Source of the DNA: Monocercomonoides exilis PA203
Lineage: Eukaryota > Protista > Preaxostyla
DNA length: 64,000 bases
Direction of reading: 5' to 3'
Assembly (NCBI GenBank): GCA_001643675.2
Contig: LSRY02000052.1
Location: forward strand, 1 to 64,000
The position numbers and the translations under genes are program-made. Under the pieces are notes generated by a model. It saw only the letters and a program-made list of their open reading frames with translations, did no database searches and was not told the DNA's origin. The number at the start of each line of letters is the position of its first letter. Position 1 is the first letter of the stretch. Shown piece by piece: positions 7,817 to 50,383 of the stretch.

Positions 7817-7877
7817 ACAGAGCAGTTTTCCAATATAATGAAAAAATTGTAATATTACAATAAAAACTAAATTATAA

Positions 7878-8327
7878 AAAGTATTAGCAAACTGGTAAAA
7901 AGTTGGAAAAGTTAGTGGTTTTAAAAAAATGAAAGAAACAAAACTCCAGCTTTAATCAGAACCATATCTTTTTGAATTTTTGAATATTTATTAAAAAAAA
8001 AACAAGTATCAGAAAAATTTTGATTTTTTGTTTAATAGTTATGTATGTGATAAGAGTTAGAAAAATGTTTTTTCTGAATTTTAAAAACTTGTATTCATGG
8101 AAAAAACTTCTGTTTTCCGCTTCAAACAATGAAGATGACAGAAGGATCAGAATCTCGATGCCACTTTTTTTTGTTCAAAATGGTTTATTTCATCGATTTA
8201 ACTTCATATATTACTAAAAAACTGCTTTTTGAAATCTGCAATTTTCGCCCTTTAGCGCGTAATTTTTTGATCTTTTTGCCCTCGAAAAAATTAAAATATA
8301 GGGTCGGATCCTTTTTTTCATTCAAAA
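7878..8327 (+). repeat. Left terminal inverted repeat
   Basis: aaagtattagcaaactggtaaaaagttgg...gggtcggatcctttttttcattcaaaa is the reverse complement of 15835-16276 apart from homopolymer lengths and about one substitution. Confidence 0.95.
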
Positions 8328-8990
8328 ATGTTGATGTGTATGAGTCATATTTTTTCATTTTTCATGCATTTCTGAATGATTAGATGAGTGATCGTTACAA
8401 AAATGTGTTTATTTTATGTTATTGAGTTTTTCTGAAAATCGTAGAAAAATGAGTGAAATGAAAAAAAATACGTCAAAAAATAACAATCATCCACCAATCA
8501 AAATGACATAAAAAAACAAAAAGTACTTCATGATATTAATCATTTAAAAAATTGAAAACAGTTAGAAATTTTCTAATCAAATTCAATAACTTTCAAAAAA
8601 ACACAATTCTGTCACATAATCATAAAACAATCACCAAATATCAACTAAATATCAACAATTTTGAACAATGAAAAATATAAGAAGAAATAGCACTATTTCA
8701 ACAAATTCATGGTATCAAAGACAATTCCAAACAAAAAAGAATACTTATATAAAAAGTTCAAAAACTAACTTGTCTATTTTCCCTCTGTTTTCCATCCACT
8801 CACCCCTTTCTGATATTTCTCTCTCTTTGACTCAAAAAGATCAAATCCAACAAAGAAAAAAGACAGACACAATGATAAAACAACATTTCACACTCTCAAC
8901 AACTCTCCCTTCCAAAAATCTCACTCAAAGATCAATGAATTCCTTCACAACTCTATCTATTAATGAATCTCGATATATACATGTATAAGC

Positions 8991-9050
8991 GGGACAATAA
9001 CCAAGAAATAAATAGGGACATATCAGGGACAATAACCAAAAGAAAACAAT
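8991..9050 (+). repeat. Short direct repeats (gggacaataaccaa x2, plus a partial gggaca copy)
   Basis: Copies at 8991-9004 and 9026-9039, partial copy at 9015. A related copy lies at 9201-9224. Confidence 0.75.
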
Positions 9051-9060
9051 CGGATTCTAA

Positions 9061-9190
9061 CTGTTGTGCACCTGGGAGGCTGTTCGTCGTATCCAGGTCC
9101 GGATATTGCAGCCCGAAGGCTGCAATATCTAATACGAACAGTCACGTCCAGCACCCTTCCGATAAAGTGCCAGCTAAGCATGCACAACAA
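9061..9190. ncRNA. Putative structured RNA (or ssDNA) element just 3' of the transposase stop codon
   Basis: GC-rich island with nested stems: gttgtgca/tgcacaac (9063-9070/9181-9188), ctgttcgt/acgaacag, a perfect 12-bp hairpin gatattgcagcc-cgaa-ggctgcaatatc (cUUCGg loop on the minus strand), and a gcac/gtgc hairpin. Confidence 0.55.
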
Positions 9191-9198
9191 CTAGTTTC

Positions 9199-12100
9199 TT
9201 AATAGGGGACACCAAAAGAACAATTTTGAGATTCATTAAAAGAAGAAGAGTCAAGAAGAAGCTCAAATCTCCTTGAAAGAAGATCTTGAGAAGATTGAGA
9301 AAGAAGAGAAGAGTTAGATGATGTGATATCAGAGTGAAATGACTTTCTTGATCTTTGAACTTTTTCTTTCATCGTTGAAGATTCGAGGGCAACCAGAGAG
9401 CGTTGAGGAAGATATCCAACAGCTGAAGCAGAGACAAATGAGCCTTTGCGCTCAAAATACAAGTAGTCCTTCATGTGAGGGACTGACAGAGATGGCCATG
9501 AAATTTGCTGAGATGGTACATATTCTTCAAAGTACCTCTCATGCTCAAAGTTATTGACAGATGTTGAAGATGGTGAAGAGTTCGATGATGATGTTGAGAA
9601 AATGTTTGATTGTGAAGTTGAAGAAGCTGATGTCGAAGTGTTCATATTGTTTTCGAAGAAGTTGATCAAATCATGAAGTGTGGTGATGTGTTCAGTCGAA
9701 AGATTGTTGTCGATTGCATTCACTAACGCACCAAATTCACTATCACAGATATTTTTTCCATGATGCTCAGCGAAGAAGTTGAGTTGAGTGTTTTTCTTTT
9801 TAAGAAGTTTTGATTGTTTTGAAAGGATGAAGTGAAGAAGGAAGCGATTACGGTTGTGTGGACCTGAATCGCAGAAGAACTTAAAAGTGTGAGTGTCTGC
9901 GAAGAAGTGTCTTTTGATCACAGATTCCAGACACTCAATAACAAATCTGTGATCATTTGAGAGACAGTCGGAGAAGAAGTCGAATGTTCGTTTTATTTGT
10001 TGATTATTAATTTTTTGAAGAGAGATGATTGTGAATTGAGAAACTTGTTGATAATTGAAGAATTCCTGTTGAAGTTGATTTTTTCTGATAGGGAGTTTCC
10101 ACTTCTCTTTGAAGTCGAAGACGAAGACTGCTTCTCCCTCTTTCAGATTATCAACAGTTGATTGATAATGTTTTCGTTGCATTTCTGCAACAAGACGATG
10201 TTGTCGAAGAAGTTTGAGTGTATGAAATTCGGCAGAAGAAAGTCCATTTTTATTTTGTGAAGACTTCAGTTTGTTTTCGAGATAGTTGAGTTTCTCGCAC
10301 ATTCCACAAAGATCTGTACGTCTTTTCGCTTTGGAAAAGTTGGTAGTGAGTTTGTAGAAATGTGACAGAGAAACTTTGATGTTTGTTTCTTCTGTGAACT
10401 CACTCCATAATTTTGTCTTGGGCTTGAAGATTAATCTTTTCTCATTGGGAGAAAAGATGCCCATTTTCTTTCTTTTTTCTTTCAAAGCTTCCAATCCATA
10501 AGAAGATGGAATTGATGATGGTAGTTGTGGAATGGAAGTTGTTGGATGAAGTGGAGTGATGAATGAGGATGAGGATGATGATGATGATGATGATGATGAA
10601 ATGTTATTTAAAGTGTTTAAATTTGATGTTTCTGAAGAAGAAGAAGAACCACCAAATTGAATAGTAGATAGTGTTGGTTTTGTTTTTTCTTTTGTGTAAA
10701 ATGAAAGGGAAGGAGTGAAACCTTGTGAGTGAAGATTATTCCATGAAGAACTCCATTTGTCACTATCGAATTCAGAAACACTTTCATCATTGCAAATACT
10801 CCAAAAACTATTGATTCCACTTTTTCTTTTCACAATTGCGATGTAATGTCCGTTTTGTTGATCCAGACGTTTGAATAGTATTTGTCCAGAAAAATGATAT
10901 ATGATGGTTTCTTGATTATCTTTTTGAAGATGTTGAATATCTTTAGAAGAAAACCCTTTGCAAAACGTGCGTTGATTGACTCTGTCTGTTTCCATTAGTA
11001 ATGTTCTCGAAGGTGCTGAACTAGCAGAATCAGTACATTCATGACAGAGGGCTAGCACCTCTGGAAATGCAGCCATTTCCTCCCATCTCGCAGCACAGCA
11101 TTTTTCCTTGCATGCATCACAATAGACACTATTCTTTCCTTCCAAAACTTCAGTTGCAAAGAGAGAAGATAATCCATGTTGCGTTGATGAAGAATTGATA
11201 ACAATATTGCTACAAAATTCATTGAAATGTGATGTGATTTGTTGGCATTTTTGGCATTTGAAATGAGTGATTAAAACAGGATTGAAGGTGTCCTTATTTA
11301 TCAACTCATCTTTTTGAAGAAGTTGGTGAAGATTGTCAAATGCCTCAGCCGCGTTTTGCTGCTGTCTGCTTCCATAGTTGCAGAAATTTTCCCATTTGTC
11401 AATAAGAGATGGGACCCATGAACGCACTGCCGTTCCATCTTTAGCCAATTGATGACAAACACTTACAACACGCGAAGATGTGTTCTTCAAAAATGTTTGT
11501 TTTTTGAATAAAGATGGTTTTTGAATAGTTATTGAAGAGAAACATTGAAGAAGAGAAGCCAAATAGCATGTGTTGCCTAAGTTAGGCAATCCTTTTGCTA
11601 TTTGTGATGATTTATTTGAAGAATTTAATGAATTTGAGAAAGATTGAGAATGAGAATGATTTTTTATTGAATTTTCTTTTGCATTCTTTTTTGAAATATT
11701 TTTTGAAGAATTATTTTGAATAGATATTTCATTATTTGAAGATTGAATGCTTTGTTGTTGAAGTATTGAAGTGTCATTCTCTTTTGAAAATGAAGAAAAG
11801 AGATTTTGAAATGCTTGAGGTGGAATTAATGTGGGTGAAGTGGCATAATCTACTAATTGCTCACTTACAAACACATTATCATTTTGAAATGATGAAGTAT
11901 TTATTTTTTCTTTCAATTTTTTTGTAATTGAAATTTGTGAAGAAGAAGTTTTTGATTTGAATATTTTGTGAATTGGTATTGGAGATGGAGAAGAATGACG
12001 CTTGTGATATGAATTTTTATTTTGGTTTTTTGTTGACCCCCTTTCTCTCCTTATTGGAGTGTTGATTGGAGCATCAACAGCTTGAGAAGAAGAAGAATTT

Positions 12101-12907
12101 GAAGAAGGAGAATTTTTTTCTGAAATGGTTTTTGAATTTTTATTGAGTTGAGATGATGTTGAAGAAGAAGAAGATTGTTTTTTATTTGTAGAAGAATTTT
12201 CTGTAATAATTTCTTCATCCCAAGCTGCTTCGTCAATAAATCTGGCGTAATCTGGCTCAGCTCGCTGCTTTTTCTTTGCTGACTGAAGCGAAGTTGAGGC
12301 TTCAGTTGAATGAGCCAACATCCAGTTATTGCCCTTTTCCCATTCCTGTTCATTTAAGCCTATAATAAACAGAGAAAATTATTCAAAAAAAATTAAAATA
12401 AATACAAACCACTTTTGCAAGACGGAAGGTGAGGTTTTTGTGGCGGAATGATAAAACCTTGATTCTTCTTCAGCGTTTGCTTCGCGTAAATAAATTTTCC
12501 CTCTGTGACATCATATCCATAGTCCTGTAAATCGGATAATGATGTGTTGCGGGAAAGCGCTTGTAGCATTGTTGTCTGAGTGTGCAACGGAGCGTTGTTG
12601 TACACCACAGACAGGTCTTCCAGCAACTTTATGTGATATTCTGTTTCAAAAAAATAAATAATTAACAAATCAAAAAGAAAAAAAATAACAGAGAGTAATA
12701 ATATTATTTATAACACACAATACAAAAAATAAAAACCAAACCATTCAAAGACTTCAGTAAATCATCAATTACTGAAGATGATTGCCTGTAGGTGTAAAAC
12801 AAATAGGCAAGCAACGAATCCACGTCATTTCCGCCGATTCTCTTTATTTCTTGCCATAGAACATTGCAACGAGAATTTAATGTCGATTCGCGTTTTGAAA
12901 TGGACAT
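9199..12907 (-). CDS. USP (peptidase C19) deubiquitinase / Sola-like DDD transposase fusion, 3 exons, ~1185 aa
   Basis: Exons 12907-12742, 12640-12410 and 12359-9199 join in frame via GT-AG introns. USP Cys box GLPNLGNTCYLASLLQC, QQNAAEAF, CxxC pairs, His box GHYIAIVK and ICNDESV. Transposase motifs TDLCGMC, VFDFKEKWKLP, SDCLSNDHRFV, FCDSGPHNRN and FFAEHHGKNICDSEFG. Confidence 0.88.
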
Positions 12908-13552
12908 TTTTCTCTAATAAATATTTTCTTATGGAAAATCACAATTATTCTAAAATAATTTTTTTTATTTAAAAAATATGTATTGTTATTTTTCATTATT
13001 TGACTATTTCCAAAATTGTTAAAAATTTTTTTAACGTGATTTGAATTATAGAAAAAATTTTAAAAATTTCTTATCAGAAAAAATTGGAAAAATTAAAGAA
13101 TTCTTAAATTGAAGGTTTATTGAAAAATTCATCACATAAATGAACTTGTCTTATGAAAAATATCATTCTCATATATAAAGTTCTTAAAAATATATATAAT
13201 ATTGTTCTTCAATGAAAAAGAATCAGATCCATAATTCAAAATTCGAAGGAGTCAAAAAGATCAAAAAAAAAGTGCTAAAGGGGGAAAGTGCAAGGAGCAG
13301 AAAACAGTTTTTTCCAATAAATAAAGTACATATGTCGTTATTTATCATTTCCGGCATAAATCAGACACATGATAATATTGTCATTTTGTGATCGTCATTG
13401 TTTTTAATTTTCAAACAGAAAAAATTGAATTTATTTTTTTCTCGATGAATGAAAGGATTTTGGATTTTTTTCCAAAGCCAGAGAGTTTATAATTTTTTTT
13501 TATTATAAATGTGAATTAAATATTTCAAATTGAAATTTTTAGTGAAAATCTG
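12908..13552. promoter_or_regulatory. Divergent (bidirectional) intergenic region of the transposon
   Basis: AT-rich spacer between head-to-head ATGs at 12907 (-) and 13553 (+). Confidence 0.45.
13213..13430 (+). repeat. Degenerate internal copy of the TIR, oriented like the right TIR
   Basis: gaaaaagaatcagatcc...caaaaagatcaaaaaaaaagtgctaaagggggaaagtgca...cagtttttt aligns with 15843-15945. tcattttgtgatcgtcattgttt...aaacagaa aligns with about 16012-16050. Confidence 0.75.
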
Positions 13553-15442
13553 ATGAAACCCAATAAAAGGAAATTCATAATGTCAAGTGGGAGGTTGTCT
13601 GGTTCTCGATTTTCCCGTGCGCACACAAGCATGAGAAAGCAAAGCATAATGAACGATGTGGATATGCTATCGAACTTTTTCAGAAATATGTCAGTTGATC
13701 ATGCAAATAAAGTCCCCTTCGAATTTTTTATCAAATCGATCCCCGGAAACTCGCTAATGAATAATCTGATGAAAAATTATGGATGTTTGCTTTTTGTTTT
13801 TCCTTTATTTTCTTTGTTTTTTGTAATTAATAATTTTTTATTTTAATATTTATTATGTTTTTATTTTTTTATTATTTGTTTATAAAAAAGCACCATTACA
13901 TAAGTTTGTCCAAAAATTGAAGCTCCCGTTCAATGAATCGAACCCGTATATCCAAGAAAAAATGCTGCTGTGTCTGACTGAGTGGTTTTCTCAGCAAGAA
14001 CTGATACAAGATTTCAATTACAAGATCAACTGTTTGGGTGAATGTTTGAAGGATAAAAAGGAAGAGAATTCAATTCAATCAATTTTTCGGAAGCAATCTT
14101 CTTCATCAAGTTACAGTGTAATATCTTCAGACGAAGATGAAGCGGTTGATCAAATGTCTGAAGAAGAAGAAAGCGACGATGAAGAAACGGAGAGCGATGA
14201 ATGTTTAAAAATGAGCAAAGATAAAAAATGTTCAGATATTAAAAGAGGAGGAATGAAAATGGAAATAGAGGTTTGGTTTTTTATTTTTTTCAAAATTGCC
14301 TGATTCAATTTGACAGGCAAATCAATAATTATTTGTTTATTTTTTGTTTGTTGCTTTGAAGCAACAGTCTTCAATGGAAGCATTAGGAAATCCTTATTCT
14401 GTTCTTTCGACAGTTCCACAAATGAGTAGCTTTTTTCAATTTCCTCCTTCGTTTCTATTTCCAGCTCATCCTTTACCAAAAGAATCACGTTCATATGTTC
14501 AGGTGTTGGTGAATTGTGGGAGGGAGTTGATAAATTTTGGATCATCATGTGCTTTAGCTTCTATTTGTCAATGTCTGGCATCGTTTGGAGTGCAATGTGA
14601 TATCAAAAAAGACGTGGAGGAGTGTATATTTTCCGAAGACTTTTCAGTGCAATCAGAGGGAGAACTGTGACAAGCAAAGTGTGGGGAACTCCAGCATTTA
14701 TGAATTTTGTGCAAAAACATGGTGGGAGCAAATCTGATCCATTAGGGATCACAACAGCATATGAAGCAATTCTGAACGATGCATTTTTGAGGGGTGCAAT
14801 ATCAAGAAAGACTTCACAGTGAAGCAATCTTCATTCAAACTGTGTGCGAAGTGTTCTCATGTTCGTGTTCATAACCAAAATCCTTCGTTTTATTTCACCA
14901 TCATGCATCCATCGATTGTGAAGGGGTTGAATTTGTCATTGTCTGTAACCGATCAGTTATCAACTGAGGAACCGTGTATTGATGCTTATTGTGGGTGCAA
15001 GACTTCATTTTTGTATTGGACACAAATTGACAGGTTCCCAAAAATCCTTGCAATTTATCATAGCTCAAAGGAAAACTCCCCTGTTATGCAACCGCCCAAA
15101 ACTATCACATTTCATGGAAGTGGATCCACTCCGAAATCGATGGTGGTGACGTCACATGCAACAAATCAACTGAAACATGAGTTTTCTTTCTTTCCGAGGA
15201 TTGATTACAATTTCATTGGATATGTCCTTCATTCGATGAAACCTATGCCTATTGGTCATTTTATAGCAGTTGTTGTTGATGGAAGAGATGAATCGACTGG
15301 GGAGCTTAGTCTACTGGAGTGCAATGATGGAGTTATATCTCAGGTGAATTCCCATTTCAATGAAGCATATTGGAAAGCAATGGCAAATGAAGGATGGAAT
15401 GGTGCAATTTGTTTTTATAGAATAAACCAAATGATTGAATGA
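13553..15442 (+). CDS. Second transposon-borne USP/C19-like protein, paralog of the transposase N-terminus, with two apparent -1 frameshifts
   Basis: Exons 13553-13784, 13891-14270 and 14368 onward splice in frame. Cys box LINFGSSCALASICQC, CAKC, FPKILAIYH, His box GHFIAVV and LECNDGVI. The frame changes near 14610-14625 and 14805-14819. Confidence 0.75.
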
Positions 15443-15834
15443 TTTTGTTCTTTGTCTATTTTTGCTTTAATTTTTACTTTTTTTTTCCTTGCGATTTTTA
15501 CTTTCGAATTTTTCTTTTTTCAATTTTCTCACTTCCTCTCTTGATGTTTTCAGTTTGATTTTTAACAGTTTTCTCAAGAAATCATTTATAATGAATGAAA
15601 TATTTTTTATTTGAATAATGAATTTCTTCTGAAATGACAAATCCTTCAAAATTACAAAAACATATCATAATTTAAAATAAAAATAAAAAATGAAAAATAT
15701 GAAAACATCAATAACATTAACATTGCTGTTAAAAAACAAATAAAATTTATTTTCAGAAAATTTATATGATACCTGTCCTTATACGATTTTTAAATCACAA
15801 ATTTTAAAAATTCGACTATACTCAACATTGTCAA

Positions 15835-16276
15835 TTTTGAATGAAAAAAGGATCCGACCCTATATTTTAATTTTTCGAGGGCAAAAAGATCAAAAAATTA
15901 CGCGCTAAAGGGCGAAAAATGCAGATTTCAAAAAGCAGTTTTTAGTAATATATGAAGTTAAATCGATGAAATAAACCATTTTGAACAAAAAAAGTGGCAT
16001 CGAGATTCTGATCCTTCTGTCATCTTCATTGTTTGAAGCGGAAAACAGAAGTTTTTTCCATGAATACAAGTTTTTAAAATTCAGAAAAACATTTTTCTAA
16101 CTCTTATCACATACATAACTATTAAACAAAAAATCAAAATTTTTCTGATACTTGTTTTTTTTAATAAATATTCAAAAATTCAAAAAGATATGGTTCTGAT
16201 TAAAGCTGGAGTTTTGTTTCTTTCATTTTTTAAAACCACTAACTTTTCCAACTTTTTACCAGTTTGCTAATACTTT
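15835..16276 (-). repeat. Right terminal inverted repeat
   Basis: Reverse complement of 7878-8327. Confidence 0.95.
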
Positions 16277-17029
16277 CTTTTTTTAATGTTTGTAGTAATG
16301 CTATTATTTCTCAAATATATTTTTATTTACCACTTTTTTTAAAAAATATGTCATAATATATTCAAAATCTTTATATTTTATGTTTATTTGTCAGTAATAT
16401 CTGATTCTTAAACTGTTGGCCTGTATTTATCTTGCGTTGCGGCTTTTATGAGAAATGGTTTTTATAAAAAAATGGAGAATTTTATCAGATTCTGCTTTCA
16501 ACCGAACATGTTTTCTGGCGCTGATTGAGTTCACTCTGCTGCTCGTGCGCCAACAAGAAGAATGAAATATCATGCATTCATTCATCTTCTTGGCGAGTTG
16601 CAATAATTATTGAAGCAGTGGCATTTTTTATTTATGAAATGCTTTTACAGCGCATTGTTGCTAATTCAATGAGACGGGGAATTCAATTGTTTGTCGACTG
16701 GAGACAGCAGCGGAAGAGCAAGAAATGTAAAAGAATGCTCATGTTTTATGCAGGACAAGGGAGATTTGTTTTGCAGAAACAGAACTGCAGAGAAAGGAAC
16801 CGAACGAGAACAAAAGATGGAGGTAAGATAAAGGAATGAGAAGCAAGAGAGGTAGAATGGAAAATTAGAAAGGTTATTTTGTTCAATCTATTTAATTCAA
16901 TCTTCTTTTTTTTTTTAAATTTTGAACTTAATAATTATAATTTCAAGATCCTTGCATGATTTTTTATTATTTTTTCTCTGATTCAGATACAGATAACATT
17001 AAAACATGGCTTATTTTGACGAAGCAGAC

Positions 17030-21274: not shown

Positions 21275-22058
21275 CAAACAACTTAGGCAATGCTTAAAAG
21301 AAAAACAGATGATGAAAAAGATGTATTCATAATAGTTGTAAGCTTTTTTAGTGAAAAAAGTGAAATTTTTCTTATTTCTTTTTAATTTTTTTTGATTCTA
21401 ACTTTGCAATTTTTAAAAATAACTTTGATCAATCTATTTAAATAACTTCTTTGAAGTATTATTTATTTCCAAGCAAATATCAACGACAAATTGTTGTATA
21501 TTTGATAAATATCTTGAGTTTCTATTCTCTTTTTCAATGTTTATTATTGAATATCGATTGTTTTTAACGAAAGTTTTAAGATCTTCAATATTTATATATA
21601 AATTTCTTTCCAATAACATCATAAAACTTATTATAATATAAAAAATTATTGATTTCATATAGTTATTATTGTTATCATGTTATATTAATGATTAAAAAAA
21701 TGTTTTGTTGCGTTTATTGAATTATCGATGTTTTCCAATAAAATTTTTATATTTTTTTCAAAATTTGAAATAAAAACAATTGTAAACAATTTTAAACGAA
21801 CAAATAAATTATATTAACAATATATGAATGCAGATTTTTGCATTATTTTACGAAAATTTTTTCTTATCAACCCCACCCTTAATGAAAATTTTTTCTGATC
21901 AAACGTCGGAATTTTTTATGATATCATAAAAAATCACCCATTTTTTCAAACTATTGTTATGAATAAAGCATTTAAATACAAAAAAATTTACCAAAAACAA
22001 ATGATTATTGTACAAACAACACACCGAAAAAAGTTATGATTTCAAAAATAATCATTTA

Positions 22059-22463
22059 TAGTTAGTGTTAATAATGGTGAACACTTTCAAAAACTGTGGA
22101 CAGTGGCAATATCTCAACAACTGTTGATAATTGTTTTTTGACAATTAACACAATTATTCCTTCATTGAATGTGAATTAATACGAATTGTTTTTTTCATTC
22201 ACACATAACAATAAAATTTAATAAAAATTATTTTTTCTTCTCGGAGAAACTCGGAGAAATAAGATTCTCCGAGTTTCTCCGAATATTTAAATGTCTCTCA
22301 CTTTATTCTTGGGAGCAAGTTGTTTCATTTTTGAATGACTTATTAATTCACATTCAATGAGGGAATAATTGTGTTAATTGTCAAAAAACAATTATCAACA
22401 TAAGTTGAGATAATGCAACTGTCCACAGTTATTGAAAGTGTCCACCATTATTAACACTAACTA
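22059..22463. mobile_element. Foldback MITE with ~125-bp TIRs, TA flanks and a central palindrome
   Basis: 22057-22181 is the inverted repeat of 22341-22465. Ends are TA|TAGTTAGTG...CACTAACTA|TA. The centre has tcggagaaactcggagaa-6nt-ttctccgagtttctccga (22241-22282). Confidence 0.85.
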
Positions 22464-22702
22464 TATATTTCTTTCATAAAAATTTTCTGTTTGAGATTTA
22501 GAAAAGAATTATTGTTAATGAACTCTGAAAAGAGAAAAGGGCAATGAAAAATGTAATTGTTTTTCTTTCATTCAAACATTAACCGTTCTAAAAATTGGGA
22601 CACATTCAAAATATGAAAAGATATTTTTAATAGAATGATTAATAACTTCTGTGTTACTTACATTTGGCAGAAAGTGATGATTTCAAAAATGTCCGACCAC
22701 AT

Positions 22703-22942
22703 GGGTGATTCTTTTTGAAAAGTCACAAATGTTTAATTTTCAAATAAATCAAAAATTTCATAGTATGCTCAAATTTCTGTTAACTAATATCAAACTTCAC
22801 TAAAATGGAATCTATTCATTGATAATGCTATTTCAAACATTCTTGAGGAGATTTGTGAGCTGAAACAAAAATTTGAGCAAAATATGAAATTTTTGATATA
22901 TTTGAAAATTAAACATTTGTGACTTTTCAAAAAGAATCACCC
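22703..22942. mobile_element. 240-bp MITE with GGG termini, ~80-bp TIRs and a 4-bp TSD (ACAT), Sola2-type
   Basis: ACAT|GGGTGATTCTTTTTGAAAAGTCACAAATG...CATTTGTGACTTTTCAAAAAGAATCACCC|ACAT. Confidence 0.88.
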
Positions 22943-23241
22943 ACATGGATGATTGTTCAAGAAGTTATTTCTTTTTTAATGTGACTTTATTAATTTTTCA
23001 AAGTGAGAACTTTCACATTCAAAATATTAATTTTGCAAACGAATTTACAATTTTTTCAAAAGTAATAATAATTTTTGCGTTCGATTTAAGAATTGGGATA
23101 AAATATTTGTCTTTAGACATTTTCATTGATAAATTATGCACCTGAGATGAACTTTTTGTGATCAAAAAAAATTGAAATTAATGGATTTATTTTTTGAAAT
23201 ACAAGTGAGGTCACAAAGCATTTTGTTATTTCATCAATGAT

Positions 23242-23361
23242 GTTTGCATACGAATATGAAAATCAAATTTATTTTGTAATCTGATAAAGTTTGAAAATGT
23301 TTTAAGTGAAACATTTTTTTCAAGCAATGTGCATAAAAAGCTTGAAAGTCCATATTTTCTC
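23242..23361. repeat. Dispersed repeat, inverted homolog of 49278-49399
   Basis: Shared blocks tatgaaaatca(a/g)atttatttt and gtgca..aaaaagcttgaaagtcc.tatttt. Confidence 0.65.
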
Positions 23362-32100: not shown

Positions 32101-35100
32101 CCCATTCGCGTGTCCCACTCATATTCATCCTCTCCTTCCCTGGGCGCGGTCGGAACCGCTTCGGCTGCTGCTGCTGCTGTTGCTGCTGATTCCTCATTCT
32201 GTATTCTCCCTCTGCATATCTTCTGTCATCCTCCACACCCCAGCTCTCCTTCAGCCTCTCTCTCTGCCACTCTCTGTCTCCATATCTCTCTCTATCTCTA
32301 TACCTCCCTCCTCTCTCCATACCCCTCGATAGCGATACTGCCCTCCCTGGTACTTTCCTTCCTTGCCTCGTCCCCATCGCTGAGTGTGCAACAGACCCAC
32401 CGGAAAGCTGCTGGCTGAATGCAGCGCCGGCATTGGCTGTTCTTGCTCTCCTGTGCTTCTCCTCCAGCAACAGTAGCTGCTCCAACTCCAGTGCCAAAGT
32501 CCTGTCCTGCTCACGCCGCATCGCCTTCCGCTTCTTCAGCGCCTGTTTTGTGTCTGATTCCTTTCTTGCAGCGCTTTTCTGTGCGTTCTCTTCCTTCGCA
32601 ATCTTCTTCAGATGCCGCTGCATCGCTGGCTGGTCGACGATCACACAGTGCTTGTCCAGCAGCGCATTGTATGGCTCCATCGCCCTCTGCCCCGCGGGGG
32701 GCGGGCGATTGTCCCATCCTTCCTCTCTCTTCTGCAGCAGCTCATTCTCCCTCTCCTGCCAGCTGTCTCGCTTCACATTGCTTTTGTCACCCCGCCTCTC
32801 TTCCCGGAGTTTCTCCGCTCGGCGATTCGGAGAAACTCGTTCGGAGCTCCGGTTTGTTGCGCCTCGGCGTGTTGAAGACAGTTCTTTCTCTGCTTTTGTT
32901 CTCTTTTCACTTTTCTTCTTCGGCTTCTTCTTCATCGCCTTTGTTGTCTTCTTGTCGCTTCTTTCAGACTCCATTGCTGTGCCTGACAAGTTCCCACTCT
33001 CTCCCAATTCAGAACTATCTCCAAACATCTCTTTCTCTCTCTTCTTCCCTCTCCCTCTCCCTCCTCCTCCTCCTCCTTCTCCTTCTCCCCCTCCTTCTTC
33101 TTCCCCTTCTACTTCCTCTTCATTCCTTTCTGAATGTACCGACGTGTTTGTCGAGCTGAGTGTCGCCAGCAGCTTCTCCCTCTCTGCCTTCATCTCCTGT
33201 ATCCTCAGCTCCTCCTCCTGCTGCATCTTCTCCAGCTGCATCAGCATCACCTGCACCTGCTTCTGTTGTTTTTCTCTCTCTCTGCTTTCTGCCTCGTCCT
33301 CCACGCTGCTCTCCCGCTGCGCCGTCAGCTTCTCCTGAAGCAGCTGCATCTGCTCCACCATCGTGTTCATGTGCGTCTCCAGCTGTTTCTCTCTCTGTGC
33401 AATCTGCTCGTCACAGGAGGAGGAAGAAGAGATTGAAGAGGCTGAATCATCGTAATCATCATCATCATCATCATCATTAACATTGCTGTCATTGTCATTG
33501 TAGTCTTCTTCATAGCTGTTGGTATTATTGTTATTGCTTTTATTGCTATTGTTATCATTATTTTCATTTTCTCTTTCCTCTTCAGTGTATTTATCTTCAA
33601 ACGAATCCTCATATTTATCAGCATATTTAGCTTCTTCTTCTTCTCTTTCTCTTTCTTCTTCTCTTTCTTCTTCCTTCCTTCTTCCTTTCTCTGTCCGCAC
33701 TCCTTCATCCTGAGCGAGAGAAGGCGAGTGTGTTGCAGAGCTTGAAGGAGAAGAAGGAGAAGAAGCAGCAGAAGAAGAAGCACGAGAAATGGGGCGAGAA
33801 GAGGAAGGACGAGGTCTGCCTGCAGATTTTTTGGGGTCAGAAGAAGAAGAAGAAGAAATTTGAGAAGGAAAATCTTGATTCTCTTTGGATGATGATATTT
33901 CTGAATCTATTTCTTTTTCTTCCTCTTTCTCCTTTTCCTTTTCCTTTTCAGTTTTTCTTCCTTTCCGTTTATTCTGCAGTTGTTTGATTTCTTCTTTGTA
34001 TTTTGCATCTCTTCTTGCTTTCTCTTTCATTATCGCTGATATCTTCTGCTGTGCTTCATCTATCTGCTTCTGAATATCTTCTTTTTCTTCTTTCTCTTTC
34101 TCTTTCTCTTTCTCTTTCTCTTTCTCTTTTCTTCTTCTTTCTTCTTCCTCTCTTTCTTTTTCTTCTCTTTCTCTCTCTTCTTTCTCCTTCTCCTCCCTCT
34201 CCTTCCTCTTCCTCTCCATCTTCTCCATCTTCCCTTCTTTTGCCTTCTCCAGTTTTGCTTTGTATTTCGCATCTTTCTCTTTCTTCTTCCGCATAATTGA
34301 AGATACTTTTGCTCCAACTTCTTCATATTCTTCTTCTTTTCTTCGGTTTGCTTTCTTTCTCTTCTCCTCTTCTTTCTCCTTCTCTTTCTCCTTCTCTTTC
34401 TCCTTCTCTTTCTCCTTCTCTTTTTCTTTTTCTTTTTCTTTTTCTTTTTCTTCTTCTCCTTTCTCTTCTTCTTCCTCCTCCTCCTCTTCTTCTTCATCTC
34501 CTTCTTCTCCTTCTTCTTTCTGATATCCAAACATATCTCCTTCTTCGCTCTCTTCTTCTTCTCTTTCTTCCTTTTCTTCTCTTTCTTTTGATTTTTTAAC
34601 TTCTTCCTCTTCCTCTTCTCTTTTTTCTTCCTCTTTCTTACTCTCTTTTTGACTTTTCCTCTTTTCCTGCAGTTTTGCTACTTCTTCTTTGTATTTCGCA
34701 TCTTTCTCTTTCTTCTTCTTCAACGTCGCTGCAATCTTCTGCCCACTCTCTTTATACTTTTCATTTCTTCTTCTTTTTTCTTCCTCTTCTTTCTCCTCTG
34801 CTTCTCTCTTCTTCTTTGCTTCTTTTTCTTTTCTTTCTCTTTCCTCTTTTTCTTTCTCCTTTTCCTTTTCTTTTTCTTCCTCTTCTTCCTCTTCCTCTTC
34901 ATCTCCTTCTTCCCACTCCTCTTCTTCATCTTCCTCTTCTTCTTCTTCCTCCTCTTCTTTCTTCTCTTTCTCTTTCTCTTTCTCCTTTTCTTCTTTTTCT
35001 ATCAACTTCTTCTTCTTTTCGCTTCTTTCCTTATTCAATCTTGCAATAGACTGTTTATACTTCTCGTCTTTCTCCTTTTTCGCCTTCAAAACACTCGATA

Positions 35101-37156
35101 TCTTCTGCCCACTCTCTTCATACTGCTTCTTCCTTCGTTTTTCTTCTTCTTCTCTTTCTTTCTCTTCCTCTTTCCTCTTTTTGTCATCTTCTTTCTCTTC
35201 TTTCTCTTCTTCCTCTTCCTCTTCTTCTTCCTCCTCTTCTTCCTCTTTCTTCTTCTCTTTTGCTTTCTCTTCTTCCACTTTTTGTGCTTTTGCTTCTGTA
35301 ACTTTCTTTTCTGGTTTTTCTTCTTCCTCCTCGTCCTCTTCCTCTTCTTCCTCGTCCTCTTCCTCCTCCTCCTCTTCTTCTTCCTCTTTTTCTTTTTTCT
35401 CTTTCTCTCTTCTTCTTCTTTCTTCTTCCTCTCTTTCTTTCTCTTTCTCTTCTTTCTCTCTCCTCTTCCTCTCCATCTTCTCCTTCTTTCCTTCTTTCGC
35501 CTTCTCCAGCTCTGCTTTGTATTTCGCATCTTTCTCTTTCTTCTTCCTCATAATTGAAGATATACGCTCCCCTGTCTCTTTATACCTGGCTTCCTCTTTC
35601 TCCTTCATCGCTTTCGCAATCGCTGCTTCTTTTTCTTTCTCTTTCTCCTTTTCTTTCTCTTTTGCTTTTGCTTTTTCTTTCTCTTTCTCTTTCTCTTTCT
35701 CTTCTTCCTCCTCTTCTTCATCTCCTTCTTCCCACTCTTCCTCTTCCTCTTCCTCTTCTTCTTCATCCTCTTCTTTCTCTTTCTCTTTTTTCGCTTCTGC
35801 CTTTTGAACAGCAGCAACATTTTGTGATTGTACTTTTGCCACTGGCTGTGGTAACATCTGCTTTTTGCTTTCTTTCTCTTTCTCCTCCTCTTCCTCTTCC
35901 TCGTCTTCTTCTCCTTCTTCTCCTTCTTCTCCTTCCTCCTCCTCTTCTTCTTCTTCTTCCTCTTCTTCTTCTTTCTTCTTTTCTTCTTTCTTCATTCCTC
36001 TTTCAATCACAACTTCCTTTTCAGGTTCTTTTTCTTTTTCCTTCTCTTTCTCTTCAATTTTTGCTTTGCTCTCCTCAACTTCTGGAGTCACTTTCTTTTC
36101 AGCAACTTTTGTTTCTTTCTCCTCTTCCTCTTCCTCCTCCTCTTCTTCTTCTTCCTCCTCCTCTTCTTCTTCCTCCTCCTCCTCATCCTCCTCCTCATCC
36201 TCCTCTTCTTTATTTTTATCTTCTTTTACTTCTGGTTTATTTTCAGAGATAGGCTGAGAAGGTGCTTTTGTAACTGGTTGTGGCTTATTATCCTCTTTTT
36301 CCTCCTCCTCCTCTTTTTCCTCCTCCTCCTCTTCTTCTTCCTCATCTTCTTCTTCATCCTCTTTCTCTTTGCTTTGTTTAATCTCATTGGCATTTTTCAG
36401 TTGCGGTTTTTCTTCAATTTTTGCATTACTCGTTGCACTGGTATTTGAAGATTGAACAGGAGCCTGATTGCTTTGAGTCTGCTTCGCATCAGATTCGCCA
36501 TTTATTTTCATACTGTTATTTTTTCCCTTGGCTTCACTTTCTTCTTCTTCCTCCTCTTCCTCTTCCTCCTCTTCCTCTTCTTCCTCACCTTCGTCTTCAT
36601 CATCATTTTTTGTAACTTCTTTTACTTTTGGAGTTTCTTCTTTTTTCAGTTCTTTTGCTTCAACTACGTTCTTTTCTGGTTCTTCCTCCTCCTCCTCTTC
36701 TTCCTCCTCCTCCTCTTCCTCTTCCTCTTCTTCGCCTTCATCATTATTTTGGCTTCCAATCTTCATTGCAGGTTTTGAAGCATTATTATTGATTTGTTGC
36801 TGACGCTGTGGTTGTGCTAATGATCTATCTGCGTTTTTCTTTTGTATATTTTCGGCCTCTTCTTCTTCTTCATCTTCCTCTTCCTCCTCTTCTTCTTCCT
36901 CTTCTTCCTCTTCTTCTTCATCGTCATCTTCCTCTTCCTCTTCCTTCTTTTTTCTTAAGTCATTACTTCGTTGTTGTAAGGCCTTTGATGCTGCGACTTC
37001 TTCGATGCAACGATTAAATAATATTGCAATTCATTCATGAAAATATTATGTCAGTTGGAATGCATAAGCAATGAGATGAAGTATCAAAGTACAATATTAA
37101 AAAACGTTAGTTGATAACTTGAATTTATAAGTTAAGTATTCCTAACCTTTTGCCAT
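29198..37156 (-). CDS. Giant (>2500 aa) Glu/Lys-rich low-complexity protein with internal repeats
   Basis: Uninterrupted 2522-codon ORF, open further upstream to about 37010. Possible micro first exon ATGGCAAAAG|gt at 37156-37147. Confidence 0.75.
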
Positions 37157-48347: not shown

Positions 48348-48729
48348 AAATAACGAACTACATTGACTGATGTGATAGAAACTTTATCAATTCATCACTC
48401 GGATTTTGTCTCTTTTTATTGAGTTTAAATGATTTGTCTAAATTATTCTTATTTCTGGAAACACATTAAAATTTAATTTTTTATTCCTGATTTGAAAAAA
48501 CACACGTTTTGATCCAGATTTATTCTGGTTAACAATCCCAACATGTGCAATAAATTGATGAAAAATAAAATCGATATATTTTTTTATTACGGAAAGATTC
48601 TTAGCAGTTATGTGGAAAGTGGAGTGTGACAATGCATCATAATTAAAAATATAAATTTTCAATTATTCGGGTTCTTATTTTCAAAAAGTTGAAGACGTTT
48701 ACCGTTTTTGCTGAATAAAGCTGAACATT

Positions 48730-49400
48730 TTGGTGATTATTTTTGAAATCATATTCTTTCAATCAAATATTTTCGTTTTCGAATTCATTTTGAATATCAA
48801 CAAAAAAAACACTGAAAAATGAAAAGACTCACAAATAACATCATCATTTTCATTTCAATGTAAACATTTGTTCATGAAACAGTTGTGATAATTATAGCAT
48901 TTGAATTTAAAACCTTTTCCCAATGTCAAATAACCTTGGAGAAATCAATACCCCGAAAAAAGTGATGATTTCAAAAATTTTCGCGCATATGGTTATTCTG
49001 AATGACAGAAAGAAAATACGATGATAATAAAAAAGAATGTTCAATTGTTTGTGCGAAAAGTTATTTAAATAGAAACACTATGCTAGGTTCAACGATTGAC
49101 ACAAATAAACAGAATGTTTAAATCTGTTTATTATCTTCAGGTTATGAACATCTCACTGTGATCCATAAAAATTGTTGACAATTTTGTCGATCCATTAGTA
49201 GCATTTGAACAATGTTGAAAAAACGGACTTTGTCAAGTTTACAAAAATCTCCTGAAAGAAATGGAATTTTTGAGAAATGAAGGAAAATACGGACTTTCAA
49301 GCTTTTTTTGCACAAGGCATTGAAAAATTGATTCGCTCATAACTTTAATTTCGCTTTCTCAGATTTTAAAAATAAATCTGATTTTCATATCTGCAAACAG
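48730..49400. repeat. Old dispersed-repeat cluster
   Basis: Segments homologous to 721-860, 22025-22050/22670-22700 and (inverted) 23242-23361. Confidence 0.55.
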
Positions 49401-49468
49401 GCTTCGTTGAAATAATAATATGAAGTGTTGTGACATTCCGCGAATGTCAAAATGTGAACACATATTTA

Positions 49469-49864
49469 CAGATATCGCATAAAATACCGGACATCGCACA
49501 AAATACCGGACAAGATCGATATTTCAATAACTGTAAGAGAAATAATTCTGACAATTTTCCTCAAAACACACCTCATCAATACAAACTCATTTGATATACA
49601 AAACTTTCAAAGCAGCTTCATTTGTGCTCAGAAAAAATAATAATTAAAATTTAGGAGAAATAGGATTTTGTGTTTCTCCGAGATAAAAATAAAATTTTTC
49701 TCCATGCATAAACGAGGAAGTTTTGAAAGTCTTGAATGTCACATGAGTTTGTATTGATGAGATATATTTTGAGGAAAATTGTCAGAATTATTCCTCTTGC
49801 AGTTTTTATGAAATTGATCTTGTCCGGTATTTTGTGCGATGTCCGGTATTTTATGCGATATCTG
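49469..49864. mobile_element. Tc1/mariner-type MITE (TA TSD, CAG termini, ~140-bp TIRs)
   Basis: TA|CAGATATCGCATAAAATACCGGACATCGCACAAAATACCGGACA...TGTCCGGTATTTTATGCGATATCTG|TA. Each TIR has a tandem 19-bp motif. Confidence 0.88.
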
Positions 49865-50383
49865 TATTATGTTTTTTGATCTCAAAAAGTCAATGAAAAG
49901 TGCATAATTTTTCAATGAAAATGCCAAAAGCAAAATAATTTGCCCCACCTTTTGGGATCTAATTATCGTTATTTTGAATAAATGATATTTTTGTTTAACT
50001 TCAAGCCAGGAGTTAGCAGTTACCAAAATCATTATAAAACTAATAATTTAAATATAAAGAACACAAATTAGATGAATTTAGGTAATGTTGTTTTGTTTCC
50101 TTTAACTGTGTGGAATAAACTTGTAAAATGAACAAAATTTTCGTTTTTATTGTTGATTAAACTTTGATCTTATCATAATTTTTTAATATTCAAAATAAAA
50201 ATGGAGAGAATTAATAAAACATGTTGTAAAGAGCTTAGCACAAGTTAAATATCATAAAAATTATTTATTTGTATTTCATTGAATTGTAACTTTAATGATT
50301 CGACGATCTACCAAGTTTGATTGAGGTTCGTGATAAATCAATTAACTTTTATTGCATATTGCAAAATACTGAATCAAAAATAA

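What the first reader, a model, noticed from the sequence alone, without database searches (positions are those of the whole stretch)
9061..9190. Compact multi-stem structured cassette immediately downstream of the transposase stop
Seen: a ~130-nt GC-rich island in very AT-rich DNA, beginning about 10 nt after the stop. It has an 8-10-bp closing stem, an inner ctgttcgt/acgaacag stem, a perfect 12-bp hairpin whose minus-strand loop is the hyperstable cUUCGg, and a GCACUUU/AGGGUGC hairpin. The segment cctggg (9071-9076) can pair with either 9092-9097 or 9147-9151, giving switch or pseudoknot potential. G-U pairs support both strands, so orientation is unresolved. Inference: an element-encoded ncRNA, 3'-UTR regulator, novel ribozyme or ssDNA recognition structure. 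It matches no family I can recognise.
Basis: partly seen in the sequence, partly recalled or inferred. Interest (0 to 1): 0.78.

Follow-up and report, generated by a model that had tools for sequence, protein, structure and literature searches.

The report
Folded RNA behind a protist transposase
Right after the stop codon of a jumping-gene enzyme in what is likely a gut protist lies a 145-letter stretch, nearly unchanged between copies, that is predicted to fold into a compact RNA of no catalogued family and likely protects the gene's message from decay.

Summary
The stems are real. The cassette begins 4 nt after the stop of a USP-peptidase/DDE-transposase gene in a multicopy element whose close copies are labelled Monocercomonoides exilis. 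Three corrections. (1) The minus (sense) strand is favoured: a 15-pair closing helix, cUUCGg loop, and ensemble energy -57.5 against -49.0. (2) The perfect 12-bp hairpin is a minority allele; about 84% of depth has a 2x2 U/U loop. (3) The cassette is the non-mirrored loop of an old 545-nt inverted copy of the transposase 3' end (66% identity). It stays 51% GC while that arm fell to 27%, and it varies about half as much between copies (p 0.007-0.05, confounded). A 6-bp loop-tail pseudoknot and a two-state inner domain are predicted. No credible Rfam, ribozyme-motif or outside homologue was found. There is no double-sided covariation and no RNA data, and a mutation-energy test was not significant. 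Best reading: a cis-acting 3'-UTR element that protects the transposase mRNA (0.4). A neutral or DNA-level origin remains possible (0.25).

The parts
9049..9194 (-). Structured cassette, about 145 nt, two nested junctions, starting 4 nt after the UAA stop
9180..9194 (-). P1 5' strand of the 15-pair closing helix (partner 9071-9057); 3-4 G-U pairs on the minus strand
9057..9071 (-). P1 3' strand
9148..9173 (-). P2 hairpin, 10 pairs, 6-nt loop 9163-9158
9134..9141 (-). P3 5' strand, 8 Watson-Crick pairs with 9087-9080
9080..9087 (-). P3 3' strand
9102..9129 (-). P4 hairpin with cUUCGg loop: 12 perfect pairs in the window allele; 6 pairs, a 2x2 U/U loop and 4 pairs in the majority allele
9090..9105 (-). 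P5 hairpin, competing with the outer part of P4 (p about 0.55 against 0.43 in the majority allele)
9049..9054 (-). 3' tail, fully complementary to the P2 loop 9163-9158 (predicted pseudoknot PK-A)
9070..9098 (-). Predicted pseudoknot PK-B, 9098-9093 with 9075-9070; free only when P5 is not formed
9199..12321 (-). Last exon of the USP peptidase + DDE transposase gene (1040-aa ORF); upstream exons about 12405-12641 and 12743-12907
8432..8976 (+). Decayed inverted copy of the transposase 3' end (9770-9223), 348 of 529 aligned letters identical
8991..9050 (.). Two direct copies (8991-9011, 9026-9050) and one partial copy (9015) of the GGGAC-containing ORF end 9206-9224
8408..8414 (-). First AAAUAA/AAUAAA signal downstream of the stop, just past the inverted arm
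   Evidence: motif from PMC8767320 passages
7832..8354 (.). Long inverted repeat, the putative end of the element
   Evidence: 491 of 526 identical to 16321-15806
15806..16321 (.). Partner long inverted repeat

Best explanation
The cassette lies on the sense strand 4 nt behind the stop codon of a DDE transposase gene, is predicted to fold into a two-junction RNA closed by a 15-pair helix, and likely acts in the mRNA as a barrier that protects the message from decay coming from its long fold-back tail. Shown: the gene, the position, the stems, the near-identity of the core between copies, and the 545-nt inverted copy of the gene's 3' end that follows it. Inferred, step by step: (1) Pol II reads through the cassette and the inverted arm to the signal near 8410, giving a 3' UTR of about 800 nt that can pair back onto the coding end. 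(2) The cassette folds on its own in the loop of that fold-back. (3) When the U-rich tail is deadenylated, cut or trimmed, 3'-to-5' decay stalls at the base of P1, where the tail is tied to the P2 loop by six pairs; this leaves a stable message without its antisense arm. (4) The P4/P5 two-state domain may tune this. Steps 1, 3 and 4 are untested.
For: Sense strand: 15 continuous pairs on minus against 9 on plus; majority-allele ensemble energy -57.5 against -49.0; cUUCGg loop. The two common variants in P1 (9063 at 44%, 9182 at 69% of X1 depth) and the window's 9165 allele all keep pairing as G-U on minus. Conservation: X1 lists 10 variable places in 9035-9225 (all rows shown; 9063 makes 11) against 132 in 8700-9700; Fisher p 0.007 for 9040-9200 and 0.051 for the core 9066-9195. 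In X2 one 101-nt contig at depth 297 spans 9070-9170, while the other seven listed pieces have depth 3-29 and 8-19 differences. X8, from another study, has only the majority letters over 9035-9168. GC is 51% against 27% in the decayed arm. The spacer is not a mirror image (score -38, shuffles -42 +/- 8.5, true arm segments +36 to +48). The cassette keeps its fold inside the 1421-nt predicted transcript. A loop-to-unpaired match of 6 bp or more arose in 1 of 400 shuffles. Precedent for stabilising elements behind a transposase gene or a stop codon: PMC13541005 (passages), PMC5580461 (abstract).
Against: No double-sided covariation was seen, and the variant tables carry no linkage. Observed variants are no less damaging to folding than random ones (minus-strand p 0.32-0.64 in three subsets); 2 of 13 break a P1 pair (9188, 9193). 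The G-U bias to the minus strand is also seen in the decayed arms (48 against 21, p 0.002), so it may reflect strand-biased mutation, not selection on RNA. The 1% depth filter is stricter where depth is high, Logan contigs drop rare alleles, and the window's own alleles are missing from X2, so the conservation contrast is confounded. PK-A was noticed after the fact, and the same script scored the real sequence only 4 bp because a weak 2-bp MFE helix covered the tail. No feature ties the fold to decay rather than to another role. Whether this host has a hairpin-RNA or NMD pathway was not established.
Confidence: 0.4

Rival explanations
1. No RNA function. The cassette is a GC-rich piece caught in the template-switch event that made the inverted and direct duplications. 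It is kept palindromic by strand-switch correction, and looks conserved because it is younger or because of assembly filters.
For: It sits at the symmetry centre (about 9100-9105) of a real inverted duplication and between direct copies of the ORF end. The window's TT allele at 9106-9107 perfects a palindrome, as template switching would (inference). The energy test is not significant. The window has three other self-inverted elements.
Against: The spacer is not a collinear mirror. P2, P5 and the crossed PK-A order cannot all be remnants of one fold-back. GC and C content did not decay as in the arm. The loop is cUUCGg.
Confidence: 0.25
2. A separate small RNA of about 145 nt, 5'-3' paired and ending at the U-run 9046-9043, is transcribed by Pol III or cut from the 3' UTR and acts in trans, for example as a decoy like VA RNA or sfRNA.
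For: The ends pair in a 15-pair helix, a U4 run follows 11 nt after it, and an A-box-like GCTTAGCTGG starts at 9179. The high-depth block begins near 9040.
Against: The internal B-box-like match has 2 mismatches, and the 1-mismatch one lies at the 3' end. An A-box-like match of this kind is expected about 0.15 times by chance (own estimate). ARAGORN finds nothing. Contigs show the cassette only in its transposon context (share running on unlike 0-0.01).
Confidence: 0.15
3. A self-cleaving ribozyme of an uncatalogued class cuts the mRNA behind the stop and so removes the antisense fold-back arm.
For: Compact size, two junctions, two predicted pseudoknots, a peripheral UUCG cap and nearly invariant junction letters. 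The position upstream of a self-antisense arm would make a cut useful.
Against: No hammerhead core (0 matches even with 1 mismatch), no HDV L3 motif, no twister or pistol motif (motifs recalled), and no Rfam ribozyme hit. A cut would also remove the poly(A) tail.
Confidence: 0.1
4. A translation-termination or readthrough signal: the helix 4 nt after UAA slows termination or promotes readthrough, adding 18 residues before a UGA.
For: The spacing resembles that of viral readthrough structures (recalled). The frame is open for 18 codons after the stop.
Against: All four close homologues end at the same place. UAA is the least leaky stop (recalled). No conserved extension could be tested.
Confidence: 0.1

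Closest known systems
ENE / dENE of plant and fungal transposons, e.g. rice hAT TWIFB1 (PMC13541005, passages)
   Same: A structured element behind a DNA-transposon transposase gene; the proposed role is mRNA stabilisation.
   Different: No U-rich internal loop able to bind poly(A), only a 2x2 U/U loop in the majority allele. It is a multi-junction fold, not a hairpin, and the gene has introns.
[quoted passage not shown]
   Same: Lies immediately after a stop codon that is followed by a long 3' UTR; protects the mRNA.
   Different: The RSE is 400 nt and retroviral. Here the element is 145 nt and compact, in a protist DNA transposon, and no activity is shown.
Flaviviral xrRNA (PMC8374639, parts 1-2 of 5)
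   Same: A three-way junction at the start of a 3' UTR with a hairpin loop predicted to pair with a downstream tail.
   Different: The pairing loop is on the 5' hairpin, the P2-P3 linker is 6 nt rather than 0-1, no 5'-end pairing into the junction is evident, and the RNA is larger.
Mu killer of maize (PMC3440606, abstract)
   Same: A partial inverted duplication of a transposase gene that would give a hairpin transcript.
   Different: Here the duplication is carried by many copies of the element, is only 66% identical (longest uninterrupted predicted helix 12 bp), and has a conserved structured loop.
DUF7869 (PF25273)-type eukaryotic DDE transposases
   Same: Atlas neighbours at 0.93-0.95; 2 of 22 aligned relatives hit DUF7869; the fold matches IstA, Mos1 and Hermes.
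   Different: Fused to a USP peptidase. The superfamily was not assigned: the two defining papers tried were not held.

Membership tests
Any Rfam 15 family | Score at or above the gathering threshold | tested here: not met
   0 hits; one 12.9-bit partial hit against a cut-off of 382. Only the window allele was scanned.
ENE/dENE | [quoted passage not shown] | tested here: not met
   No run of 4 U inside the cassette; the largest U loop is 2x2.
ENE/dENE | Located behind a transposase ORF on the sense strand | tested here: met
Flaviviral xrRNA | Three-way junction plus a loop-to-downstream pseudoknot | tested here: inconclusive
   A junction is predicted and a 6-bp complement exists, but from the 5' hairpin.
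Flaviviral xrRNA | 0-1 nt between P2 and P3 | tested here: not met
   6-nt linker 9147-9142; criterion.
Flaviviral xrRNA | Blocks Xrn1 in vitro | not testable with these tools
   needs an assay
Hammerhead ribozyme | CUGANGA and GAAA core around three stems (recalled) | tested here: not met
   0 matches to CUGANGA even with one mismatch, majority allele, both strands.
HDV-like ribozyme | Nested P1-P2-P3-P1.1-P4 with L3 UYCNCG and J4/2 CNAA (recalled) | tested here: not met
   No L3 motif on either strand. On plus, only 13 nt lie between the P2-like strand and the GG, too few for P3, L3 and the P1 3' strand (read).
Twister / pistol ribozymes | Conserved core words (recalled) | tested here: not met
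   Rfam negative
Any self-cleaving ribozyme | Site-specific self-cleavage | not testable with these tools
   needs an assay
SECIS | AUGA/GA non-Watson-Crick quartet, about 11-bp helix II, apical AAR (recalled) | tested here: not met
   AUGA at 9145 in the majority allele, but no GA opposite and no apical AAR.
Box H/ACA or C/D snoRNA | Hairpin-H-hairpin-ACA with pockets; boxes C and D (recalled) | tested here: not met
   An H-like ACAUGA follows P2, but P2 has no pocket and the ACA is 12 nt past P3; boxes C and D are absent.
tRNA / tRNA-derived SINE | Cloverleaf or A and B boxes, poly(A) or repeat tail, dispersed copies | tested here: not met
   ARAGORN 0; weak B box; no foreign flanks among the loose ends shown (114 and 12 rows not shown).
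Bacterial small SRP RNA helix 8 | CAGG/AGCA loop closed by a 3-bp stem and a GNRA loop | tested here: not met
   Plus-strand sequence likeness to E. coli ffs in 2-6 of 3000 shuffles, chosen after the fact; the helix-8 pairs are not kept.
DDE cut-and-paste transposon | RNase H fold with conserved acidic residues | tested here: met
   Invariant D149, D231, D273 in 22 sequences; all 7 PDB matches with E<=0.001 are transposases.
DDE cut-and-paste transposon | Terminal inverted repeats with a target-site duplication | tested here: inconclusive
   526-nt inverted repeats, 93% identical; no duplication or exact end was found, and no genome was held.

The most novel reading that the evidence does not exclude
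A new class of 3'-end-forming RNA, self-cleaving or nuclease-directing and switchable between two folds, that lets a DNA transposon cut away the antisense fold-back copy of its own transposase message and so escape hairpin silencing.
Probability: 0.1. Interest if true: 0.85.

Novelty: new variant of a known kind. Interest (0 to 1): 0.5.

Why it matters
The structured RNAs behind DNA-transposon transposase genes that turned up in the papers read here are the ENE/dENE triplexes of plants and fungi. This one has a different fold and comes from a distant protist lineage. It also sits in the loop of a built-in antisense fold-back that many copies carry. If it protects or cuts the message, it shows how a transposon can tolerate its own hairpin, and it adds a compact RNA fold that is cheap to test in vitro. 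Searches for Monocercomonoides with transposon or non-coding RNA and for ribozymes in DNA-transposon UTRs listed no title describing it; only the listings were seen, apart from passages of PMC8767320.

Tried and rejected
No own genome was held, so copies were seen only as variant tables of contigs. No RNA holder was listed; this is no evidence either way. X9 laid nothing. Outside homologues of the cassette: a loose viral pattern gave 5 loci, judged chance from their folds. A stricter pattern gave 0 in metagenome, genome and viral contigs. blastn gave one short chance hit each in phages and plasmids. Loci of transposase relatives: 21 viral and 242 metagenome pattern matches, none confirmed, so cassettes of distant relatives could not be inspected. 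A profile search of PDB sequences gave 0. The earlier-findings look-ups were empty. The SRP helix-8 likeness was rejected. Likenesses to 5S rRNA, U1, TPP riboswitch, glmS, hairpin and hatchet ribozymes were recalled by eye and dropped for lack of Rfam support. A Helitron 3' end on plus (CTAG at 9191) was rejected because the majority allele breaks the hairpin. The loose end behind 9113 was first read as an inverted loop and is more likely the other arm laid on the palindrome. The P5 indices were off by one and were corrected; no variant falls there. The z-values printed for two allele sets are placeholders and were not used. The sigma-70 scan is not relevant to a eukaryote. Three papers were not held.

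Full report
Context. The window is eukaryotic. The ORF 12321-9199 (minus strand, 1040 aa) carries a UCH/USP domain (E 1.4e-11) and a C-terminal domain with invariant D149, D231 and D273 in 22 aligned sequences. Its predicted fold (pLDDT 76) matches transposases: all 7 PDB hits with E<=0.001 are IstA, Mos1 or Hermes. Four homologues at 90-95% identity are labelled Monocercomonoides exilis, so the window probably comes from that species or a close relative. One homologue maps to two further upstream exons. The unit lies between 526-nt inverted repeats, 7832-8354 and 15806-16321, 93% identical; exact ends and a target duplication were not found. A profile-free search found 699 relatives at E<=0.001, and the Atlas places them near DUF7869. 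The superfamily is left open.

The observation. The 151 nt fold better than 200 of 200 shuffles on both strands (z -5.4 and -4.4). Among 124 strand-windows scanned across the element, only the coding stretch 10321-10460 is comparable. Rfam has nothing credible.

Other copies. No genome was held, so I laid public contigs on the region. One search shows 40 of 165 variant rows; one search shows all 12 rows for 9035-9225. The window differs from most copies at 9106, 9107 (84% of X1 depth), 9145, 9165 (over 99%) and 9182 (69%); 9063 varies in 44%. So the perfect 12-bp hairpin is a minority form, and most copies have 6 pairs, a 2x2 U/U loop on the minus strand and 4 more pairs. X1 lists 10-11 variable places in the cassette block against 132 in 1001 nt overall (Fisher p 0.007 for the block, 0.051 for the core). 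In X2 a single 101-nt contig at depth 297 covers 9070-9170, while the other seven listed pieces have depth 3-29 and 8-19 differences. That suggests tens of copies with a nearly uniform core (inference; the tool warns that depth is no copy number). Limits: the 1% filter is harsher where depth is high, rare alleles are dropped, and X1 may be the source of the window. Contigs do not run on into unlike sequence (share 0-0.01), so the cassette appears bound to the element.

Strand and fold. On the minus strand P1 is 15 continuous pairs beginning 4 nt after UAA; on plus it is 9. For the majority allele the ensemble energy is -57.5 on minus and -49.0 on plus. P1, P2, P3 and P4 have pair probabilities mostly above 0.8. 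Inside P3 the majority allele is two-state: the outer part of P4 (about 0.43) competes with hairpin P5 (about 0.55), and only the first state frees 9098-9093 for PK-B (duplex -8.4 kcal/mol); the window allele is locked in the first state. The whole 6-nt P2 loop is complementary to 9054-9049, 2 nt past P1 (duplex -6.5). Such a match arose in 1 of 400 shuffles, and the target word occurs twice in 8490 nt. This was noticed after the fact, and the script itself scored the real sequence 4 because a weak 2-bp helix covered the tail. Of 13 variant letters, 7 are unpaired in the model used, 4 keep a pair and 2 break one; their mean folding cost does not differ from random substitutions (minus-strand p 0.32-0.64). 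No double-sided change can be shown.

The enclosing fold-back. The DNA downstream of the cassette, 8976-8432, is an inverted copy of the coding end 9223-9770: 348 of 529 letters identical, score 195 against a shuffled maximum of 72 in 100 (0 of 500 for a shorter stretch). Its symmetry centre, about 9100-9105, falls inside the cassette. The 246-nt spacer is not a mirror image, though, so the cassette is the loop of the duplication and not its remnant. The arm has drifted to 27% GC and is U/G-rich on the minus strand, while the cassette holds 51% GC. Changes that give G-U on minus outnumber the reverse 48 to 21 in the arms. This fits minus-strand transcription, but it also means the G-U bias in the cassette is not independent proof of selection. 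Direct copies of the ORF end flank the cassette, which points to a template-switch origin for the junction. The first AAUAAA/AAAUAA after the stop lies at 8414-8408, just beyond the arm. These are the signals reported for M. exilis, whose 3' UTRs average 312 nt (PMC8767320, passages); their absence over 785 nt is not itself surprising (0.39 expected each). A transcript to that site is predicted to form 386 arm-to-arm pairs, the longest uninterrupted helix being 12 bp, with the cassette intact in the loop.

Mechanism. I put the chance that the cassette is selected as a minus-strand RNA structure at about 0.7. Within that, the reading that best joins position, fold and context is a cis-acting barrier: a long closing helix with the tail tied back to a loop would stall 3'-to-5' decay and preserve the message once its U-rich antisense tail is lost (0.4). 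Rivals: a neutral or DNA-level product of the duplication (0.25), a separate small RNA (0.15), an uncatalogued ribozyme (0.1), and a termination or readthrough signal (0.1). None has direct support, since no RNA run was listed.

Comparison. In position and proposed role it is like the ENE/dENE behind the TWIFB1 transposase (PMC13541005, passages) and the RSV stability element (PMC5580461, abstract). It fails the ENE loop test and the flaviviral xrRNA junction test (PMC8374639, parts 1-2 of 5). The fold-back resembles Mu killer (PMC3440606, abstract) but is old and carried by many copies. Recalled motifs of hammerhead, HDV-like, twister, pistol, SECIS, snoRNA and telomerase RNAs were not met. 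A plus-strand likeness to E. coli 4.5S RNA is nominally unlikely (2-6 of 3000 shuffles) but was chosen after the fact and keeps none of the helix-8 pairs. No outside homologue was found. PMC9587614, bioRxiv 2021.09.26.461848 and PMC6173133 were seen as passages only and did not settle the superfamily or NMD in this host. No supplements were read.

Verdict. A real, conserved-looking, uncatalogued structured element in a transposase 3' UTR, in an unusual fold-back setting; function unproven. New variant of a known kind; interest 0.5.

Noticed in passing
window 8432-8976 and 9223-9770: An old inverted duplication of the transposase 3' end, 66% identical; the 8700-8976 part was seen in many copies. 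It amounts to a built-in antisense arm.
   Followed up: yes
window 14518-15442 (+): A second, divergently oriented USP-like gene or remnant inside the same inverted repeats (24% identity to the transposase's USP part, E 3e-6).
   Followed up: partly
window 13205-13327: An inner, 72%-identical partial copy of the long inverted repeat, possibly an older end of the element.
   Followed up: no
window 10321-10460: A strong fold inside the transposase coding sequence, z -4.7 (+) and -5.7 (-).
   Followed up: partly
window 8977-8986: A perfect 10-bp palindrome right at the end of the inverted arm, perhaps the apex of the fold-back event.
   Followed up: no
window 8991-9050 and 9206-9224: GGGAC-containing direct repeats of the ORF end; the motif persists in other copies while the spacers vary (loose ends). 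The majority letter at 9145 makes the P2-P3 linker complementary to them.
   Followed up: partly
window 22054-22468, 22702-22943, 49457-49875: Three AT-rich self-inverted elements at 76-80% identity, with related flanks at 717-861, 21939-23359 and 48726-49947.
   Followed up: no
window 33910-36742: A long, strongly skewed tandem-repeat region.
   Followed up: no
window 9202-12321 protein: A USP/UCH peptidase fused to a DUF7869-like DDE transposase; a second subfamily at 42% identity (P0007) carries the same species label.
   Followed up: partly
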